From positions 23,479 through 87,478 of the forward strand of contig JAUWEG010000001.1 in the NCBI GenBank assembly GCA_030608385.1: a stretch of 64,000 nt of DNA. Direction: 5' to 3'. Position 1 is the stretch's first letter; each line of letters opens with the position of its first letter. Of the stretch, positions 8,047 through 30,135 are shown piece after piece. The notes beneath the pieces were generated by a model. The model did no database searches, was not told the DNA's origin, and saw only the letters and a list, made by a program, of their open reading frames with translations. Position numbers and translations under genes: made by a program. Origin of the DNA: Candidatus Heimdallarchaeota archaeon (GTDB lineage Archaea > Asgardarchaeota > Heimdallarchaeia > Heimdallarchaeales > Heimdallarchaeaceae).

Positions 8047-9000
8047 TCATTTCTTCTTGGACTTTTCTTTTGGTTTTTCTTCTTCCTTACCTTCTTTCTT
8101 TGATTTGGAAGCCTTAACCTCTTTCTTTGGTTTTTCTTCTTCTTTATCTTCTTTCTTTGATTTGGAAGCCTTAACCTCTTTCTTTGATTTTGAAACTTTA
8201 TCAACTTCTTCCAGTTCTTCAAACTCGTCTTTAGGTTTCTTCTTTTTCTTCTTACTCTCTTCTTCTGTTATTTTTTCGAGTTCTTCATCGATATCTGGAA
8301 ACTCTTCTAGTTCTTCAATAACTTCTTCACTAACTTCTTCGATGATTTCAGGTTCTTCTTCTATGCCAGTATCCACTATCATGGATGTTGAAGTTGGTTC
8401 AGCTTCAATAGAAATGTCATCGGGTAAAATTGCATCTCCCCTCATGATTCGAACTTGAATACCTATTAATCCTCGTCGTATAAGGGCTGTTGCTTTTCCT
8501 ATATCGACATATCGCTCTGCAGGATCCCCTGCCTTTGCAACAAAGCCAGCTCTGAATGTTTCAACTCTTGCTCTTTGACTAGTAATCTTTCCACTAATCT
8601 TTATTTCAACACCTTTGGCTCCAATTGACATTATACGTCTAATTATACCATGAGCACTTCTACGAAAATGACGTCCCCTCTCTAGAGAAGATGCTAAACG
8701 AAATGCCATAATACGGGCATCAAGTTCTGGATTTTCTACCTCTGTTACCTCAATTTGTGGATTATCTAAATCATATTGCTCACGTAATGCTTCAGTAATC
8801 CTGTGGATGTTTCTTCCTCTTCCCCCAATCGCTAATCCTACTCTCCCCACTCTAAGAAGAACACGATCTCCTAAAGGTGTTCTTCTAAGTTCAACCCCCC
8901 CATATTCAGCATTTTTTAATTCTTCAGCTAAAAATTCATCAATTGCATTTCTTTGGTATTTTTTTAATAGATAGTCTTTTGTTGTAGGCATAATTATCAC
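8047..9000 (-). CDS. rps3: ribosomal protein uS3 with a roughly 90 aa Lys/Glu-rich C-terminal extension
   Basis: KH domain plus the uS3 C-terminal domain (GIQVRIM..., GRGRNIHRITEAL). The tail contains two copies of a roughly 20 aa unit, SKSKKExKEEEKPKKEVKA. Confidence 0.85.
   Translation of the reverse strand: MIIMPTTKDYLLKKYQRNAIDEFLAEELKNAEYGGVELRRTPLGDRVLLRVGRVGLAIGGRGRNIHRITEALREQYDLDNPQIEVTEVENPELDARIMAFRLASSLERGRHFRRSAHGIIRRIMSIGAKGVEIKISGKITSQRARVETFRAGFVAKAGDPAERYVDIGKATALIRRGLIGIQVRIMRGDAILPDDISIEAEPTSTSMIVDTGIEEEPEIIEEVSEEVIEELEEFPDIDEELEKITEEESKKKKKKPKDEFEELEEVDKVSKSKKEVKASKSKKEDKEEEKPKKEVKASKSKKEGKEEEKPKEKSKKK
8071..8186. repeat. two tandem copies of a 58-nt unit inside the rps3 3' coding region
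   Basis: The unit tggtttttcttcttc(c/t)tta(c/t)cttctttctttgatttggaagccttaacctctttcttt occurs twice in tandem. It encodes the duplicated Lys-rich peptide of the uS3 tail. Confidence 0.8.
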
Positions 9001-9461
9001 ATCTCAGCTACTTCTGCTACTAATTCTACATGGATAAATTGTCTCATTTTAGGTGAAGAACTTCCATGAGCTCGGTAAAACATACCTTGTTGTCTAGTTC
9101 CTTGTAGAGTTACAGCATGAGTAATCCTACATTTATCTAACTGTAATTGATTATTTTCTGCATTGTTTTCTAGATTTCTTACAACTCTAAGAATCTCTGT
9201 TGCAGCTTTTACAGGATATCTGCCACTTGACCAACCAACTACGCTACTTTTGTGTCCTACATTCTTTTTGAATCGTCTGTATGGAACTGCAAGTTTTTTA
9301 TCAATTACCGCCTCAAGAAACTCAATAGATTGATGAATTGTCATACCCTTAATTGTGTTACAAACTTCGCGAGCTGCCTTTCTACTAACATCTATGCCTC
9401 TAGCAGAGGCTTTGGCTGATCTATCAGGATCTGTTTGAACTGAATATTTATATTTTGGCAA
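8997..9461 (-). CDS. rpl22: ribosomal protein uL22
   Basis: VPYRRFKKNVGHK, GRYPVKAA and NAENN motifs typical of archaeal L22. There is a 4-nt overlap with rps3. Confidence 0.85.
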   Translation of the reverse strand: MPKYKYSVQTDPDRSAKASARGIDVSRKAAREVCNTIKGMTIHQSIEFLEAVIDKKLAVPYRRFKKNVGHKSSVVGWSSGRYPVKAATEILRVVRNLENNAENNQLQLDKCRITHAVTLQGTRQQGMFYRAHGSSSPKMRQFIHVELVAEVAEM

Positions 9462-25214: not shown

Positions 25215-26267
25215 ATGGGTGGAATACGAAGATATAAAAAGAAAATTCTAACACCAGGTCATCCTTATGATAAAGATCGAATTGAACGAGAGTTGCCATT
25301 AGTTGGTGAGTATGGATTACGAAACAAGAAAGAATTATGGAAAGCTAGAACTTTATTATCAAAAGCTCGACAACAAGCTCGTGCTCTTCTAGCTCTAACA
25401 CCTGAAATTAGAGAACAAAGAGCAACTGAATTATTATCCCGTTTAACTCGTTTCGGTATGCTTCCCCAAGGTGGGGATCTCGATTCTGTTCTAGCATTGA
25501 ATGTTAAAACAGTACTAAACCGCAGATTACAAACAGTTGTCTTTAGGAAAGGTTTAGCATCTTCTCCCTATCAAGCTAGACAATTTATTACACATAGACA
25601 CATCGCTCTAAATAGTGCGGTAGTTACAGCTCCTGGAATGCTAGTGAAGATAGATGAAGAAGAACATATTGCTTATGCACCAAGTTCTCCTTTAGTTAAA
25701 CAAGATCATCCTTCAAGACCACAAGCACCACCAACTCAAGTTGAAGAACCTCCTAAAAAGAAAGAAATCCCTAAGGGTAGAGGAAAGCCTAAACCTGAAG
25801 TCAAGCCTAAAGTTGAAGTCAAGCCTAAAGTTGAAGTTAAACCTAAACCTGAAGTCAAACCTAAAGTTGAAGTCAAACCTAAAGTTGAAGTCAAACCTAA
25901 ACCTGAAGTCAAACCTAAAGTTGAAGTTAAACCTAAACCTGAAGTCAAGCCTAAACCTGAAGTCAAGCCTAAACCTGAAGTTAAGCCTAAAACAGCACCT
26001 GAAGCTGCACCAAAGGAAAAACCTCTTGTTAAGAAACCTGCAGAGAAAATACCTATTGCACCAAAAGATGATATTTCATCGATTAAAGGTATTGGTGCTA
26101 AAACAGCAATGCTTCTCAAAGAAAATGGTTTCAACACAGTCGATAAAATTGCTAAAGCTACAGTTGAAGATCTTTCCAAAGTCCCAGGTATTGGTCCTGC
26201 TACTGCTGAAGCTATGAACAAAGAGGCTAAGAATTTGTTAGCCAAAAGTAAGGAGGAAGCTAAGTAG
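25215..26267 (+). CDS. rps4: ribosomal protein uS4 fused through an 11-copy PK(P/V)EVK repeat linker to a C-terminal tandem helix-hairpin-helix domain
   Basis: The first roughly 170 aa are canonical S4 (S4 RNA-binding domain, [10 protein letters not shown]). Then come the [12 protein letters not shown] repeats. The C-terminus has IKGIGAKTA ... [12 protein letters not shown] HhH motifs. Confidence 0.8.
25786..25989. repeat. tandem 18-nt repeat (cctaaa[c/g][c/t]tgaagt[c/t]aag), about 11 copies, coding
   Basis: Seen directly in the sequence. It encodes ([12 protein letters not shown])n inside rps4. No spacers are present, so this is not CRISPR. Confidence 0.85.
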
Positions 26268-26275
26268 GTGATTTT

Positions 26276-27031
26276 ATGAGTGAAGATAAAAAAGAGAAGA
26301 AAGAATCGGCTAAGAAAACTAAGGAAGACGTTGAAACTCCCAAAGTAGAAGAGAAAGTTGAAGCTCCTAAGAAAGAGAAGAAAACTTCCACTACTAAGAA
26401 GCAAGAAAAAACCGAACCTCCTAAAGAAGAAAAGAAAGCCGAACCAAAGAAACCCAAAGAGACCAAAGATAAAAAAGCCAAGGATGAAGCTAAACCTAAG
26501 AAAGAAGAAACTGAAGCTCCTAAAAAGGAAAAATCTAAAACCAAAGAAGAAGCTAAACCCGAAGAAAAGGCTAAATCTGAAGAGAAAGCTGAACCCGAAG
26601 CTAAACCTAAACCTGAATCTGAAGCTAGATCTAGAACAAGAAGAAGAGATTCTAAATACGGTGTAGCTCATATCTTTTCCAGTTACAATGATACTATCGT
26701 TCATATCACCGACATTTCAGGTGCTGAAACATTCAGCCGTAAAAGTGGAGGAATGTTTGTTAAAGCAGACAGAAATGAATCAAGTCCATATGCAGCGATG
26801 AAAGCAGCAAACTCAGCAGCACAAGAAGCGCAAAGTAAAGGAATATATCAGCTGTATGTACGTTATAGGGCACCAGGAGGACATAAGAATAGAACACCTG
26901 GACCAGGAACACAAGCAGCATTAAGGGCGCTAAAAAGATCAGGGATGAGAATATTAAGACTAGAAGATGTAACTCCTTTGCCTCATGATGGCTGTAGACG
27001 CAAAGGTGGCCGTAGAGGCCGCAGAATGTAA
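26276..27031 (+). CDS. rps11: ribosomal protein uS11 with a roughly 120 aa Lys/Glu/Pro-rich N-terminal extension
   Basis: The C-terminal 130 aa are canonical S11 ([20 protein letters not shown] ... [10 protein letters not shown]). The N-terminus is a histone-H1-like KKEK/PKKE low-complexity region. Confidence 0.85.
27002..27031 (+). repeat. direct repeat copy 1 (the last 30 nt of rps11 including its stop codon)
   Basis: aaaggtggccgtagaggccgcagaatgtaa. It matches 29354..29383 at 27 of 30 positions. Both copies are followed by T-rich tracts. Confidence 0.7.
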
Positions 27032-27075
27032 GTTTTTCTACATTTTTACTCTTTTTTTATTCTGTTTTTAGTTTG
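27032..27075 (+). terminator. T-rich tract downstream of rps11
   Basis: gtttttctacatttttactctttttttattctgtttttag. Confidence 0.3.
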
Positions 27076-27125: not shown

Positions 27126-28307
27126 ATGGCAATAGATGAAAAGAAGAATTTCTCTTGTGAAATTTGTGGTCGTAGCTTTTCAAGAAAAGATGGTTTGTAT
27201 AGACATGTTCGATCAGTTCATTCTGAAACTAAGAAATACAAATGCAAGGATTGCGAGCTCTCTTTTTCTCGTAAAGATACCTTAGATCGTCATGTTAGTG
27301 ATGTTCATAAACAAATACGAAAGCATGTTTGTAATGAATGTGGAGAGAAATTCAAACAACCTGGTGCTCTAAAAAGACATATTCAAACAATGCATGAAAA
27401 AGACGTATTTTATGAGTGTCCACATTGTGATGCAGAGTTTTCTCGAACTGATTCTTTAAACCGTCATATCAATGCAGTTCATCTAAACCTTCGTCCCTAC
27501 ATTTGTAAAGAATGCGGCGCTTCTTTTAAGTTGTCAGGTCATCTTAAGGAGCACATAATATCTGTACATACAAACAAACGAATTCATGTGTGTGAGGAAT
27601 GTGGTTTTGCATTCAAGCTTCGTAGTCAGCTCAAAGATCATATTAGAGTTGTTCATCAAGACTTGCGTCCTCATGTATGTGAAGAATGTGATAAAGAGTT
27701 TCATCATGCAAGAAGTTTGAGGAAACATATAGTATCTGTACATACTGATAATCTTCCATATGTTTGCGAAACCTGTAAGAGGGGTTTTGCCGACCCAAGC
27801 AATCTATATAACCACAAAAAAGCTAATGCTTGCTGGTATACTTCTACTACAGCCTACAAATGGGAGGAATTGTGTAAAGAAATAGCAGAGGTTTTGTTAG
27901 CTGGTTTAGATTGGAAGTGGAAACCTAAGATTGATACTCCTGATATTGAAGAGCAGAGTTGGATTCAACCTGAAATAGTTGTATACTACGAAAATAATAC
28001 AAAAAGAATCATTGATGCTAAGAGATCTACTCTAGCGATATTCAAGGAGAAGGATTTGAAAGTGTATCCAAAAGTGGCTGAGAAGGTGGAGTTTTGGTGT
28101 CTATATGGAAAAGCTGAGGGGATGTTTGAAGAGGAAGAGGAATTTAAAGCAAGAAATAGTGAAGAGATTATTGCTGAGTTAAAGAAGAAGAAATTTGAAG
28201 AGAATCAGAGTTTTGTGGATAACTTGGTAATGAAAATTCAAATGCTGAGAAAAGGATTTGAATTTAAAGAACAAAAAATTCTTGCCAACTTCTCTGAAGA
28301 ACACTAA
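27126..28307 (+). CDS. C2H2 zinc-finger protein with eight tandem fingers plus a roughly 150 aa C-terminal domain
   Basis: Eight C-x2-C-x12-H-x3-5-H units with conserved F/L positions (for example CEICGRSFSRKDGLYRHVRSVH). The last finger is atypical (H ... C). Confidence 0.8.
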   Translation: MAIDEKKNFSCEICGRSFSRKDGLYRHVRSVHSETKKYKCKDCELSFSRKDTLDRHVSDVHKQIRKHVCNECGEKFKQPGALKRHIQTMHEKDVFYECPHCDAEFSRTDSLNRHINAVHLNLRPYICKECGASFKLSGHLKEHIISVHTNKRIHVCEECGFAFKLRSQLKDHIRVVHQDLRPHVCEECDKEFHHARSLRKHIVSVHTDNLPYVCETCKRGFADPSNLYNHKKANACWYTSTTAYKWEELCKEIAEVLLAGLDWKWKPKIDTPDIEEQSWIQPEIVVYYENNTKRIIDAKRSTLAIFKEKDLKVYPKVAEKVEFWCLYGKAEGMFEEEEEFKARNSEEIIAELKKKKFEENQSFVDNLVMKIQMLRKGFEFKEQKILANFSEEH

Positions 28308-28397: not shown

Positions 28398-29318
28398 ATG
28401 TTAAACCAATCGAGATTGAGGGTTTTAAAAAAACTTCAAAGCTTTAGATATCCTTCTATTGTTGAAAGCATGATCAGAGAACGTATGGAAAAAATGAAAT
28501 ATTCCGAAATTCATGAAGGTGAATCTCATGCTCATCTCTGTTATAAAAGATTACAGGAATATGAAGTAAACATATTGCGATTGAAAGAAATACGTGAGAA
28601 GTTAGAACAAGAAAGAAAACTTGTTCTATCATTTTCCCTAAATGATTCAGAAGAAGAGATAATTGAACGAATACGGGAACTTAAGGAAAATGTTCAAACA
28701 AAGGAATCTAAAATAAAAGCAAAAGTTTCTTTACCTAAAACAGATGAAGAGATAAAAGAACTTACTGATGAAATTTCTTTATATTTCTCACAAGGATATG
28801 AGATGTACAAAACATCAATTGATGCAGATGTTAGTACTAGTCCCATTGTAGAATATTATGCAATGTTACAAATTATTAAAGCATTCATCTTACTTGAACT
28901 TGAAGTAGATACTCAAGAATTTCTTGGTGCTCATGGTTTAGAGAGAAAGAAAAATATAAACGATAACACAATATTTCAAGTGAAAACAAAAACTCATGGG
29001 GTTTTTGCTGCCTTATTACTACGTACAACTTCTTTTACAATAGAAGAGGATGGAACTCATACAAGTGAGTTACACAAATATTATACCGATTATTATCCAA
29101 AATTTGAGGACTTTGTTAATAAAAAGTTACCATATTTTAGAATTCCTGACACCTTCATTTTTCTATGGATTTTATCTGAAATAGCTCGATATCAACCACA
29201 GAAATGGAGAGAAATTTGCTCAGGAGTAAAAAACAATTGGATTGATAAAATAGATCTATTCAGAGAAGAAGCGGTACCAAAACTTTTCTTTGATTTACTT
29301 GAATATCATTGCAAATAA
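28398..29318 (+). CDS. hypothetical coiled-coil/helical protein (306 aa)
   Basis: Intact ORF that is the second gene of the repeat-flanked island. No recognisable motif. Confidence 0.4.
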   Translation: MLNQSRLRVLKKLQSFRYPSIVESMIRERMEKMKYSEIHEGESHAHLCYKRLQEYEVNILRLKEIREKLEQERKLVLSFSLNDSEEEIIERIRELKENVQTKESKIKAKVSLPKTDEEIKELTDEISLYFSQGYEMYKTSIDADVSTSPIVEYYAMLQIIKAFILLELEVDTQEFLGAHGLERKKNINDNTIFQVKTKTHGVFAALLLRTTSFTIEEDGTHTSELHKYYTDYYPKFEDFVNKKLPYFRIPDTFIFLWILSEIARYQPQKWREICSGVKNNWIDKIDLFREEAVPKLFFDLLEYHCK

Positions 29319-29353
29319 TCCATCAATCAATTTAGTTTCTACTTTGTAATTTC

Positions 29354-29383
29354 AAAAGTGGTCGTAGAGGCCGTAGAATGTAA
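29354..29383 (+). repeat. direct repeat copy 2 (degenerate copy of the rps11 3' end)
   Basis: aaaagtggtcgtagaggccgtagaatgtaa, with 3 mismatches to 27002..27031. Confidence 0.7.
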
Positions 29384-29443
29384 TTTTGTTCTTTTCTCAT
29401 TTTTTATTTTTCTTTTATTTTTACTTAGGTATAATTTTGTTGT

Positions 29444-30007
29444 TTATTCTTCTTCCTCATCTTCATTTTTGCTATCTTCATCAAACATTTCTATTGTCAG
29501 GTCAATATTTAATTTCTTCATGGTCTCTTCGGAAATTTTTCCCTTGCTATTTGATGCAAGAACAATCAACCCCCCATAATCCTCTATTCTCTGAAGTAGA
29601 GAATTAGTTTCGATATTAGCATATCTATCATGAGCATCTGTTATTTCAGTTCTCTTGCCAAAAAGTGCATCTGCTTCGTCAAAGAACAAGATCCAATCTT
29701 TGTTCTCAGCTTTGGAAAACAGTTTGTTTAAGTTCTTTTCAGTTTCACCAATATACTTGTTAAGAATAGAAGCAAGGTCCACGCGGAAAAGAGGATAATC
29801 TAATCTCACATCTAAATATTGAGTCATCGTCTTCCCTTCTGAAGATTTTCCAATAAGCAAAATCCTATAATTTTTGTCAAGATATTCTGATATGTTTTCC
29901 ACAATTTCATTTAATTGGAATTGGACTTCTGATGGCAAAACAATTTTTCTTGCAGCCTTTCTCTTCCAAAATGGGGTTATTCTCTGTATCATTCGTTTCT
30001 GTAGCAT
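29444..30007 (-). CDS. small stand-alone AAA-type ATPase
   Basis: Walker A GKSSEGKT and Walker B ILFFDEAD. The C-terminal tail is acidic. Confidence 0.6.
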   Translation of the reverse strand: MLQKRMIQRITPFWKRKAARKIVLPSEVQFQLNEIVENISEYLDKNYRILLIGKSSEGKTMTQYLDVRLDYPLFRVDLASILNKYIGETEKNLNKLFSKAENKDWILFFDEADALFGKRTEITDAHDRYANIETNSLLQRIEDYGGLIVLASNSKGKISEETMKKLNIDLTIEMFDEDSKNEDEEEE

Positions 30008-30135
30008 AGATAAAAGTCATGCTAAAACCATTTAAATCTAATCAAGATACAAGAAAAAAATAGAATATCCCAATCAGATAGAATTGAATAATTTTAAATA
30101 ATTCCAAACTAGGTTGGTTTTGTTTGTGATAACTT

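What the first reader, a model, noticed from the sequence alone, without database searches (positions are those of the whole stretch)
27126..28307. Eight tandem classical C2H2 zinc fingers in an archaeal protein (TFIIIA-like architecture)
C2H2 arrays of this length are hallmark eukaryotic nucleic-acid-binding modules and are rare in prokaryotes. The finger spacing (C-x2-C-x12-H-x3-5-H, with conserved F/L) is canonical. The protein lies immediately after the rps13-rps4-rps11 operon inside a repeat-flanked insertion, and its 150 aa C-terminal domain is unassigned.
Basis: partly seen in the sequence, partly recalled or inferred. Interest (0 to 1): 0.65.

Follow-up and report, generated by a model that had tools for sequence, protein, structure and literature searches.

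The report
Natural zinc-finger nuclease in Asgard archaeon
An Asgard (Heimdall) archaeon carries a gene that fuses eight eukaryote-style zinc fingers to a DNA-cutting domain, a natural counterpart of engineered zinc-finger nucleases, and it appears to be a selfish cassette that targets the end of ribosomal protein gene S11.

Summary
ORF 27126-28307 (+) encodes 393 aa with eight tandem C2H2 fingers (Pfam E=5.8e-44). Seven are C-x2-C-x12-H-x4-H and the eighth ends in Cys.

The "unassigned" C-terminal 157 aa is a restriction-endonuclease-fold (PD-(D/E)xK) domain. Its E...P[D/E]...[D/E]xK signature is conserved across 32 divergent relatives, the AlphaFold model has pLDDT 90, and the named top fold matches are nucleases. 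So this is a nuclease, not a TFIIIA-like factor.

Orthologues occur only in Heimdallarchaeota MAGs and always sit directly after rps11. The rps11 3' end is duplicated downstream as a relic (window 27001-27035 and 29353-29436). Some relatives have an empty site, and finger alleles are discordant with host phylogeny.

Base-contact residues -1 and +6 of fingers 1-4 are invariant, while +3 is hypervariable. The canonical code predicts GNG-GNA-GNG-GNG. This matches the antisense of rps11 codons T-P-L-P-H (26973-26996), with each triplet's middle base on a wobble position. It places the nuclease at the duplication breakpoints. Synonymous sites are scrambled from exactly that point onward.

Best reading: a free-standing homing-type endonuclease. 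No activity has been tested. The family is unannotated, and I found no description of it.

The parts
27126..28307 (+). Zinc-finger nuclease gene, 393 aa (stop codon included)
   Evidence: ORF. Pfam. Full-length orthologues carry 8 fingers plus the same C-terminal domain in 11 of the 12 Heimdallarchaeota genomes; the twelfth, L009, has an in-frame stop.
27150..27833 (+). Array of eight C2H2 fingers (residues 9-236). The spacers between fingers are 7 residues long. Finger 8 is C2HC.
   Evidence: Nearest solved relatives are ZNF568, PRDM9 and CTCF.
27834..28304 (+). C-terminal PD-(D/E)xK (restriction-endonuclease-fold) domain, residues 237-393. Predicted catalytic residues are E247 (27864-27866), P282-E283 (27969-27974) and D297-A-K299 (28014-28022).
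   Evidence: In the alignment of 32 divergent domains, P and K are invariant and the acidic positions are always D or E. AF2 model has pLDDT 90.4 and pTM 0.84 with topology alpha-beta-beta-beta-alpha-beta. Foldseek PDB hits include EcoO109I, McrC, Bax1, Card1, NucS and AvaII. BFVD hits include PD-(D/E)XK nucleases and a phage homing endonuclease. Residue coordinates checked.
26973..26996 (-). Predicted 24-bp binding site of the finger array inside rps11 (antisense of codons T-P-L-P-H-D-G-C-R): 5'-TAC AGC CAT CAT GAG GCA AAG GAG-3', read F8 to F1
   Evidence: The pattern was derived first from invariant -1/+6 residues. Matches fall at the homologous place in all loci, perfect in 6 loci and in both ZF-less sites. 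It is the only hit with one mismatch or fewer to the 22-mer in the whole window, against 0.08 expected. This is an inference from the canonical recognition code, not a measurement.
26969..27031 (+). Last 20 codons plus the stop codon of rps11: a block of scrambled synonymous sites. It is co-inherited with the finger allele and forms the left part of the exchanged cassette.
   Evidence: Among six genomes with 96% identical rps11 core, third positions are 90% identical up to codon -21. They drop to 37% across the site segment and 49% across the tail.
27001..27035 (+). Direct repeat copy 1: the functional 3' end of rps11 with its stop codon
   Evidence: D5.
29353..29436 (+). Direct repeat copy 2: a relic of an older rps11 3' end plus its downstream intergenic DNA. 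It is 95% identical over 62 nt to the rps11 end of relative L012.
28398..29318 (+). YaaC-like cargo gene lying inside the repeat-flanked segment
   Evidence: Pfam PF14175 at 2.2e-18. It is present after the ZF gene only in some relatives.
29444..30007 (-). AAA ATPase gene (IetA-like). This is a separate insertion between the relic and the conserved right flank, which starts at 30084.
   Evidence: Pfam AAA. PADLOC IetA at 2.7e-17. Absent in L004, where the relic abuts the flank.
26276..27031 (+). rps11 (uS11), the host gene that is targeted
   Evidence: Pfam Ribosomal_S11 at 3.3e-43.

Best explanation
The gene encodes a natural zinc-finger nuclease. Eight C2H2 fingers provide a roughly 24-bp DNA address, and a directly fused PD-(D/E)xK domain cuts next to it.

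I propose it is a free-standing, homing-type endonuclease. The fingers bind the antisense strand of rps11 codons T-P-L-P-H-D-G-C-R (window 26973-26996). They read codon positions 1 and 2 with invariant residues (-1 and +6) and face the wobble base with the hypervariable +3 residue. The nuclease domain follows finger 8, so it sits over roughly 26997-27011.

A break there in a susceptible genome would be repaired from a cassette-bearing genome. That repair would co-convert the last ~20 codons of rps11 and copy in the nuclease gene and its cargo. Older rps11 ends would be pushed downstream as relics.

Shown: the domain architecture, the fold, the conserved catalytic motif, the serial relics, the empty sites, the mosaicism and the synonymous scrambling. 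Inferred: the binding site, the cut position, the catalytic activity, and that this nuclease (rather than something acting in trans) drives the mobility.
For: 1) Architecture. There are 8 fingers plus a nuclease fold with conserved E...P[DE]...[DE]xK. The same nuclease domain is fused to other modular DNA-binding arrays in 47 clusters: C2H2 in 17, tandem HTH in 3, and DUF4379 treble-clef in 2.

2) Locus. The gene always sits directly after rps11, while the downstream cargo varies. Extra same-strand relics of the rps11 end occur in 11 loci, up to two per locus, with 0 hits in 1.05 Mb of shuffled sequence. L002 retains the start of an older finger gene after its relic. L024 is an empty site with rps11 followed by 95 nt and then the MBL gene, and L019 also lacks the ZF gene.

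3) Discordance. Within a host clade whose rps11 core is 94-96% identical, fingers 1-4 are only 46-53% identical. The L002 allele matches L013 instead (83% in fingers 1-4, 94% in the rps11 tail).

4) Target prediction. The a priori pattern GNGGNAGNGGNG has 12 perfect hits in 438 kb. Six are at the same rps11 position, and both ZF-less sites are perfect there. The extended 22-mer has a unique hit in the window against 0.08 expected. Residues -1 and +6 have zero entropy, whereas +3 carries about 2 bits.

5) Independent DNA signal. Synonymous scrambling starts sharply at codon -20 (26969), 4 nt from the predicted edge of finger 1.

6) Relic left edges fall 5-15 nt beyond finger 8's triplet.

7) Free-standing endonucleases with co-conversion are an established mechanism (PMC2988022).
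Against: No biochemical data exist. The binding site rests on the textbook recognition code. Fingers 5, 6 and 8 were threaded after the site had been seen. Finger 7 does not fit the code.

Resident +3 residues do not match resident wobble bases better than chance (26/103). That fits self-immunity but equally fits a wrong code.

The resident binding site and the adjacent tail are both intact, so immunity has to come from sequence variation. Six nuclease-bearing genomes still match the invariant pattern perfectly.

L019 shows a tail-flanked cassette with no ZF gene on its 1.3-kb contig, so insertion may not need the nuclease in cis. No second inverted half-site was found for a dimer. The PDB fold matches are moderate (best E=3.9e-4, TM 0.33-0.47). 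The homologous loci are not independent observations.
Confidence: 0.55

Rival explanations
1. The protein is a defence or restriction-type nuclease living in a variable island. The fingers diversify to recognise invading DNA, and the rps11-adjacent position is only a recombination hotspot flanked by conserved genes.
For: The fingers are hypervariable. Neighbouring genes vary and include an IetA-like ATPase, a PLD-family gene, and YaaC-like and HIT genes. The domain also occurs fused to other DNA-binding arrays in unrelated contexts.
Against: The -1/+6 contacts of fingers 1-4 are invariant in all alleles, so the core specificity is fixed rather than diversifying. That fixed pattern matches the adjacent rps11 sequence. 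PADLOC gives no meaningful hit for the protein. No methyltransferase or other self-protection partner was seen among the Pfam-scanned genes or in the ORF lists for the variable region. No relatives were found in viral contigs.
Confidence: 0.15
2. The rps11 end is an attachment site for a site-specific recombinase acting in trans (integron- or integrative-element-like). The zinc-finger nuclease is only one of several cassettes that the recombinase moves.
For: Serial same-strand relics of a ~21-nt core separate successive genes. L019 has a tail-flanked cassette without a ZF gene. The core GGCCGTAGAGGCC contains a short inverted repeat (direct reading of the sequence).
Against: No recombinase or integrase turned up among the seven genes Pfam-scanned around the window locus, in the precomputed gene calls for the related contigs, or in the unannotated ORF lists for the variable regions. 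The left and right copies are not identical cores in L002 (AAGGCGTGGACGTCGTATGTAA against CCGTAGAGGCCGTAGAATGTAA). Relic left edges vary by about 12 nt, which suits break repair better than a fixed crossover. This model does not explain why the fingers' invariant contacts match the neighbouring rps11 codons.
Confidence: 0.15
3. The protein is a sequence-specific DNA- or RNA-binding regulator (TFIIIA-like or a ribosomal-operon regulator), and its C-terminal domain is a catalytically dead nuclease fold used for binding or oligomerisation.
For: Poly-C2H2 proteins are usually transcription factors. The gene is next to a ribosomal protein operon. Activity is untested.
Against: The catalytic E / P[DE] / [DE]xK residues are conserved across 32 divergent domains at 27-63% identity, which is unexpected for a dead domain. 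The gene is absent from some relatives. Its alleles are exchanged among lineages. TFIIIA is not a close match. One copy carries a nonsense codon.
Confidence: 0.07

Closest known systems
Engineered zinc-finger nucleases (C2H2 array fused to the FokI cleavage domain) and the Type IIS enzyme FokI itself
   Same: A modular DNA-binding part is joined to a separate restriction-endonuclease-fold cleavage domain at the C-terminus. The array has canonical finger spacing and 7-residue spacers between fingers, compatible with 3 bp per finger. Cutting is predicted a few bp beyond the last finger.
   Different: This one is natural, not engineered. The nuclease domain shows no detectable sequence similarity to any solved structure, FokI included, and FokI is not among the top 50 fold matches. 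It has eight fingers with H-x4-H spacing. There is no linker between finger 8 and the nuclease. Dimer requirement is unknown, and no inverted second half-site was found.
Free-standing homing endonucleases (T4 Seg/Mob 'intronless homing') and PD-(D/E)xK or EDxHD homing endonucleases (I-Ssp6803I, I-Bth0305I)
   Same: The gene sits beside, not inside, a conserved host gene that it is predicted to cut. Flanking sequence is co-converted, presence is patchy, and phylogeny is discordant. The concept is described in PMC2988022. A phage protein named 'Homing endonuclease' (Bacillus phage Bobb) is among the fold matches.
   Different: Recognition is by a C2H2 finger array, which is not known in any homing endonuclease family (my knowledge; literature searches found none). 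The host is an Asgard archaeal chromosome rather than a phage, an intron or an intein. Homing itself has not been demonstrated.
C2H2-array TniQ target selectors of Asgard Tn7-like transposons (bioRxiv 10.1101/2025.07.27.667033)
   Same: Eukaryote-like tandem C2H2 arrays in Asgard archaea serve as the DNA-targeting module of a mobile element that inserts next to conserved genes.
   Different: No TniQ domain and no transposase genes are present here. The effector is a fused nuclease rather than a transposition complex.
TFIIIA
   Same: Both are long tandem C2H2 arrays.
   Different: TFIIIA has nine fingers and no nuclease (my knowledge). TFIIIA is a much weaker match than ZNF568, PRDM9 or CTCF. 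This gene is accessory and mobile rather than a core transcription factor.

Membership tests
Classical C2H2 zinc finger (Pfam PF00096) tandem array | C-x2-4-C-x12-H-x3-5-H motif with conserved hydrophobic residues, scoring above the Pfam gathering threshold | tested here: met
   146.5 bits against a cut-off of 25.2, with 8 stretches. The regex finds 8 units. L at +4 is invariant in the window protein and nearly invariant across the orthologues. Finger 8 uses Cys as its last ligand.
Classical C2H2 zinc finger (Pfam PF00096) tandem array | Seven-residue spacers between fingers, allowing contiguous 3-bp reading (TGEKP-type) | tested here: met
   All seven spacers in the window protein are 7 residues long (a few orthologue spacers are 6). 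Several end in R-P-[HY] or L-P-Y, but the TGEKP consensus itself is absent.
Classical C2H2 zinc finger (Pfam PF00096) tandem array | Zinc binding and the beta-beta-alpha fold | not testable with these tools
   Only finger 8 was included in a structure job, and that model was poor.
TFIIIA | Nine fingers, closest sequence relationship to TFIIIA, and no enzymatic domain | tested here: not met
   There are eight fingers. TFIIIA scores E=9e-17 against about 1e-45 for ZNF568 and PRDM9. The C-terminal domain is a nuclease fold.
TFIIIA | Binds the 5S rRNA gene and 5S RNA | not tested
   There is no 5S gene in the window (Rfam finds only a tRNA). The predicted site lies in rps11.
PD-(D/E)xK (restriction endonuclease-like) nuclease superfamily | Core alpha-beta-beta-beta-alpha-beta fold | tested here: met
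   AF2 model with pLDDT 90.4: H2-21, E26-29, E48-51, E57-65, helices, E84-91. The top PDB and BFVD matches that carry a functional name are almost all members of this fold.
PD-(D/E)xK (restriction endonuclease-like) nuclease superfamily | Catalytic signature: an acidic residue at the start of strand 2 and (D/E)xK in strand 3, often with E in helix 1 | tested here: met
   P282 and K299 are invariant. Residues 283 and 297 are always D or E. W246 is conserved in at least 90% of sequences, and E247 is conserved where the N-terminal helix is present (Q in two sequences). This holds over 32 domains at 27-63% identity; positions checked.
PD-(D/E)xK (restriction endonuclease-like) nuclease superfamily | Sequence-profile match to a described family | tested here: not met
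   No Pfam hit at E<=10 apart from noise. No PDB sequence or profile hit. No nuclease family appears among the 25 families listed for the 47 relatives.
PD-(D/E)xK (restriction endonuclease-like) nuclease superfamily | Metal-dependent phosphodiester cleavage | not testable with these tools
   This needs biochemistry.
Free-standing homing endonuclease | Presence/absence polymorphism at a fixed site next to a conserved gene | tested here: met
   The gene lies after rps11 in 12 genomes and several metagenome contigs. L024 is empty and L019 lacks it.
Free-standing homing endonuclease | Gene phylogeny discordant with the host, plus co-conversion of flanking host sequence | tested here: met
   Identity matrices and the mosaic rps11 end.
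Free-standing homing endonuclease | Long recognition site in the neighbouring conserved gene, tolerant of wobble variation | tested here: inconclusive
   A 24-bp site is predicted from the recognition code and has good statistical support, but it has not been measured.
Free-standing homing endonuclease | Cleaves the cassette-free allele, and its own allele is resistant | not testable with these tools
   There are only hints. Alleles with H or N at +3 in fingers 1, 2 and 4 never face the predicted base in their own genome (0 of 18 by my reading; these cases are not independent).
Integron-like or integrase-driven cassette | A site-specific recombinase gene associated with the attachment site | tested here: not met
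   No recombinase or integrase appears among the Pfam-scanned window genes, the precomputed gene calls for related contigs, or the ORF lists for the variable regions. A trans-acting enzyme encoded elsewhere cannot be excluded.
Tn7-like TniQ-C2H2 target selector | TniQ domain and adjacent TnsA/B/C genes | tested here: not met
   There is no TniQ hit in the protein and no transposition genes nearby.

The most novel reading that the evidence does not exclude
Heimdall-group Asgard archaea harbour a previously undescribed family of natural, modular zinc-finger nucleases that act as gene-drive-like homing cassettes at the uS11 gene. The finger array is built to read codon positions 1 and 2 of a highly conserved peptide motif (from memory, TP[LI]PHxGCR recurs in uS11 of bacteria and archaea; not checked here). 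It is in an arms race with the wobble positions of its target. This would mean that long, code-readable, eukaryote-type C2H2 arrays were already used for sequence-specific DNA targeting by selfish elements in the archaeal relatives of eukaryotes. The wider family swaps in HTH or treble-clef arrays and could be a source of compact protein-only programmable nucleases.
Probability: 0.4. Interest if true: 0.9.

Novelty: new variant of a known kind. Interest (0 to 1): 0.82.

Why it matters
Zinc-finger nucleases are regarded as a human invention, and long C2H2 arrays as a eukaryotic hallmark. Here both appear together naturally in the archaeal lineage closest to eukaryotes.

The locus carries an evolutionary signature that points to the actual target. 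Invariant base contacts match codon positions 1 and 2, and hypervariable contacts face scrambled wobble positions.

If confirmed, four things follow:
- A new recognition architecture is added to the homing endonuclease families.
- There is a natural system for studying how finger arrays co-evolve with DNA.
- The result bears on where eukaryotic poly-zinc-finger proteins came from.
- A small (393 aa) protein-only nuclease scaffold becomes available, whose relatives already carry interchangeable DNA-binding modules.

It also shows that an essential ribosomal protein gene is a hotspot for cassette insertion in Asgard genomes.

Tried and rejected
1) Sequence searches of the C-terminal domain against Pfam and PDB, single sequence and 32-sequence profile, found nothing.

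2) The first AlphaFold run used only 6 close homologues and gave a poor model (pLDDT 54.9). It was replaced by a run on the 32-sequence alignment.

4) The search for homologous proteins returned only 6-7 close relatives even with a profile. The exhaustive HMMER search was needed to find the wider family.

5) Looking for the finger 1-4 target in the rps11 tail itself (GGCCGTAGAGGCC) gave 2 mismatches at strong R(-1) contacts, so I rejected it. A second perfect hit on the plus strand in 'allele B' tails is not wobble-centred and overlaps the first footprint, so I treat it as a by-product of G-rich Arg/Gly codons.

6) The whole-window count of GNGGNAGNGGNG with one mismatch or fewer is not above chance (14 against 8.4 expected). 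The signal lies in the position and in the orthologous loci, not in the count.

7) A test for covariation between each allele's +3 residues and its own wobble bases gave chance level.

8) An extended pattern was first mis-registered by one base and then corrected.

9) The search of viral contigs found no relatives.

10) The contexts of three distant family members (L016-L018) showed no flanking repeats of a neighbouring gene's end, so the homing reading is not yet generalised beyond the Heimdall orthologues.

11) A link between YaaC and HEPN was not confirmed in the literature.

12) Literature searches for any description of this protein family or its accessions found nothing.
Full report
**1.

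ORF 27126-28307 (+) encodes 393 aa. Pfam zf-C2H2 matches at E=5.8e-44 in eight stretches. A motif scan finds eight units at residues 11-236.
- Fingers 1-7 are C-x2-C-x12-H-x4-H.
- Finger 8 is C-x2-C-x12-H-x5-C.
- The seven spacers between fingers are each 7 residues long, as in canonical arrays.

The gene lies 95 nt downstream of rps13-rps4-rps11. Window GC content is about 34%. A scan of one genome per GTDB species found the orthologue in 12 species: 11 are titled Candidatus Heimdallarchaeota, including AB_125, and one is an 'uncultured archaeon' MAG. The host is therefore an Asgard archaeon.

**2. The "unassigned" C-terminal domain is a nuclease fold.**

Residues 237-393 hit nothing in Pfam or in PDB sequences. 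An exhaustive HMMER search of 1.84 billion representatives found 47 clusters that share the domain.

In an alignment of 32 of these domains (27-63% identity to the window), the following hold (coordinates checked):
- P282 and K299 are invariant.
- Residues 283 and 297 are always D or E.
- W246 is conserved in at least 90% of sequences. E247 is conserved wherever the N-terminal helix is present, with Q in two sequences.

This is the E...P(D/E)...(D/E)xK signature.

With that alignment, AlphaFold2 gave a confident model (pLDDT 90.4, pTM 0.84). Its order is helix, strand, strand, strand, helices, strand, and the acidic residue and the DxK sit on adjacent strands. An earlier model from six close homologues was poor.

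Foldseek against the PDB returns, among its named top hits, almost only restriction-endonuclease-fold proteins: EcoO109I (E=3.9e-4), McrC (probability 1.0, TM 0.47), Bax1, the Card1 nuclease domain, NucS/EndoMS, Cas4-like proteins, AvaII and Ecl18kI. Against viral models it returns PD-(D/E)XK nucleases and a phage homing endonuclease. The scores are moderate, so the domain is a distant and undescribed branch of the superfamily.

**3. The family is modular.**

Among the 47 representatives the same C-terminal domain follows different DNA-binding arrays:
- C2H2 arrays in 17 representatives, some with eukaryote-like TGERPY linkers.
- Tandem HTH modules in 3.
- DUF4379 treble-clef zinc-finger repeats in 2.

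Interchangeable address modules on a constant cleavage domain is the logic of FokI-type enzymes and of engineered ZFNs.

**4. The array is not TFIIIA-like.**

By sequence the array is closest to DNA-binding poly-ZF proteins: ZNF568 and PRDM9 at E about 1e-45, then CTCF. TFIIIA scores 9e-17.

**5. The locus is an insertion hotspot at the 3' end of rps11.**

In every related locus the order is SecY(-), rps13, rps4, rps11, ZF gene, variable cargo, then thioesterase and/or metallo-beta-lactamase-fold genes. In the window a tRNA-Ser lies between SecY and rps13.

Positions 27001-27035 (the end of rps11 with its stop) recur at 29353-29387. The second copy extends to 29436 and is 95% identical over 62 nt to the rps11 end plus intergenic DNA of relative L012. 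It is therefore a relic of a different, older allele.

Such relics are general. The 21-nt core CGTAGAGGCCGTAGAATGTAA recurs downstream, on the same strand, in 11 loci and twice in L006. There are no hits in 1.05 Mb of shuffled sequence.

In L002 the relic continues into the first ~50 nt of an L012-type finger gene fused to a truncated thioesterase. This is the remains of an earlier cassette. Some cargo ORFs read into a relic and end in ...RRGRRM.

A metagenome scan recovered an empty site (L024: rps11, 95 nt, then the MBL gene) and a site with a different small gene and no ZF gene (L019). In the window the IetA-like AAA gene (29444-30007, minus strand) is a further insertion between the relic and the conserved flank, which starts at 30084.

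**6. Alleles are exchanged among lineages.**

Six genomes (window, L009, L004, L012, L002, L015) share 94-96% identical rps11 core DNA. Their fingers 1-4 nevertheless fall into four types that are only 46-53% identical to the window.
- L002's fingers and rps11 tail match L013 (83% and 94%), whose rps11 core is 86% identical.
- L015's fingers match L006 and L010.
- L009 has window-type fingers (98%) but a 77% nuclease domain, so recombination also occurs inside the gene.

**7. Target prediction.**

Across 14 orthologues, and in further metagenomic alleles, the base-contacting residues -1 and +6 of fingers 1-4 do not vary: R..R, R..R, Q..R, R..R (one allele has H at F3 -1). Residues +3 and +5 are highly variable, at 0.0-0.1 bits against about 2 bits.

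From the textbook code (R to G, Q to A; N-terminal finger at the 3' end; my knowledge of Pavletich and Pabo, and Wolfe et al.), I wrote down the pattern 5'-GNG GNA GNG GNG-3' before looking for it.

In 438 kb of window plus orthologous loci, both strands, there are 12 perfect matches. Six fall at one homologous place, the minus strand 58-47 nt before the end of rps11. Seven of the other eight loci have one mismatch there, always A for G where the Leu codon is TTR rather than CTN; L009 is degraded at this site (TTA at the F3 triplet) and gave no hit at one mismatch or fewer. Both ZF-less sites are perfect.

The site is the antisense of codons T-P-L-P-H. In this register every finger's middle base is a codon wobble position, and the invariant contacts read codon positions 1 and 2.

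Continuing the register, three more fingers fit the antisense of H-D-G-C-R:
- F5 (E at +6, L at -1) fits C-R-T.
- F6 (D at +6, L at -1) fits C-R-T.
- F8 (D at -1) fits x-R-C.

F7 does not fit. This extension was made after seeing the site.

In the window the 22-mer built from canonical contacts has a single hit with one mismatch or fewer in 64 kb, at 26973-26994 (-), where 0.08 are expected.

Because the nuclease domain follows finger 8 without a linker, it would sit at about 26997-27011. That is where the left edges of the relics fall, between 27001 and about 27011.

**8. Independent support from the DNA.**

Among the six close genomes, third codon positions of rps11 are 90% identical in the core. 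They are 37% identical in the 30-nt segment holding the predicted site and 49% identical in the tail, with the protein essentially unchanged except in L009.

The change is abrupt. Codons -30 to -21 (26939-26968) are almost identical, and scrambling starts at codon -20 (26969), 4 nt from the predicted edge of finger 1.

Site variants travel with finger types rather than with the host core. For example, type B has G[TC]G GGA GAG G[TC]G in L015, L006 and L010. This is what co-conversion next to a free-standing endonuclease produces (PMC2988022), possibly sharpened by selection for resistant synonymous variants.

**9. Caveats.**

- Nothing here is biochemical.
- Each allele's +3 residues match its own wobble bases only at chance (26/103). 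That fits self-immunity but also fits an unreliable code.
- Six carriers still match the invariant pattern perfectly.
- L019 shows a tail-flanked cassette without the nuclease gene on its short contig.
- No second half-site for a dimer was found.
- The homologous loci are not independent samples.
- Distant family members are not next to rps11 and show no comparable flanking repeats.

**10. Comparison and novelty.**

The protein works like a ZFN or FokI-type chimeric nuclease and like a free-standing homing endonuclease. It is not a member of any described homing endonuclease family by sequence. Its recognition module, a C2H2 array, is not known for such enzymes.

The nearest precedent for C2H2 arrays as mobile-element targeting devices in Asgard archaea is their fusion to TniQ in Tn7-like elements (10.1101/2025.07.27.667033). 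No TniQ or transposase is present here.

Orthologues in NCBI are 'hypothetical protein' (OLS32170.1, MCE7746752.1). Neither the accessions nor the architecture turned up in the searchable literature. That library omits most subscription journals.

**11. Verdict.**

The best-supported reading is a natural zinc-finger nuclease acting as a homing-type cassette at rps11. My confidence is about 0.8 for a site-specific nuclease and 0.55 for the full mechanism.

Noticed in passing
window 25215-26267 (+): Ribosomal protein uS4 is 350 aa. It contains about 11 tandem 18-nt repeats encoding [12 protein letters not shown] and a C-terminal helix-hairpin-helix domain (Pfam HHH_5 at 4.4e-16). Relatives also carry the HhH fusion.
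   Followed up: no
window 26276-27031 (+): uS11 has a ~125-aa Lys/Glu/Pro-rich N-terminal extension (251 aa in total). In some related contigs the called gene is only 139-141 aa, so the extension may be lineage-specific or differently called.
   Followed up: no
L006 1038-1475; L010 ~1300-1750; L015 ~8850-9300; L008 ~8905-9290; L014 ~1375-1745; L011 ~8835-9290: Six relatives have an extra intact gene between rps11 and the nuclease gene. It encodes 4-5 C2H2 fingers only (~140 aa). By eye, the L006 copy has the same R..R/R..R/Q..R/R..R contact pattern as fingers 1-4 of the nuclease. It could be a relic, or a nuclease-less competitor that protects the site.
   Followed up: partly
L002 1194-1553, L003, L013 562-1209: One allele type has four intact N-terminal fingers in frame but no ATG, GTG or TTG start upstream of them, in two species and three assemblies. 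Gene callers therefore report a truncated 276-aa protein. The real start codon is unknown.
   Followed up: partly
L009 1267-2430: This orthologue has an in-frame stop exactly at W237, between finger 8 and the nuclease domain. Its rps11 end also has amino-acid changes (TPLTHDV..., RKCGIRGRRM). It is either a decaying copy or a poor-quality assembly.
   Followed up: no
L002 2430-3725, L026 178-1473 (-), L006 2725-3471: DUF3047-like membrane-protein cargo genes read into the relic of the rps11 end and terminate with ...RRGRRM or ...RGRRL. They borrow the ribosomal gene's last codons and its stop.
   Followed up: partly
L020 ~265-290: In this metagenomic contig the predicted finger site carries a non-synonymous change in uS11 (TPLSH instead of TPLPH). 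It removes the G read by finger 3.
   Followed up: no
L017 508-2076 (P0013); L018 54-2162 (P0042): Distant relatives of the nuclease domain are fused to repeated DUF4379 treble-clef zinc fingers (~219-nt period). Others are fused to up to eight ~66-aa HTH-like modules (198-nt period), a TALE-like repeat architecture.
   Followed up: partly
L019 341-790; L006 3578-4015; L010 3597-4040; L008 15734-16183; L009 4250-4699; L013 2458-2904: A conserved 145-149-aa gene of unknown function (MNLEIDLSKLNYTFH...) recurs in the variable region. In L019 it is itself flanked by rps11-end copies.
   Followed up: no
window 29444-30007 (-): A short AAA ATPase (187 aa) resembles IetA of the Ietas defence system (PADLOC 2.7e-17). 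No IetS-like partner is next to it.
   Followed up: no
BFVD hits A0A1C9C5F7 and A0A1C9C4X3 (Heterosigma akashiwo virus 01): A giant-virus protein annotated as 'C2H2-type domain-containing' is among the weaker structural matches of the nuclease domain (rank 35, E=1.3e-2). This hints that similar fusions may exist in eukaryotic viruses.
   Followed up: no
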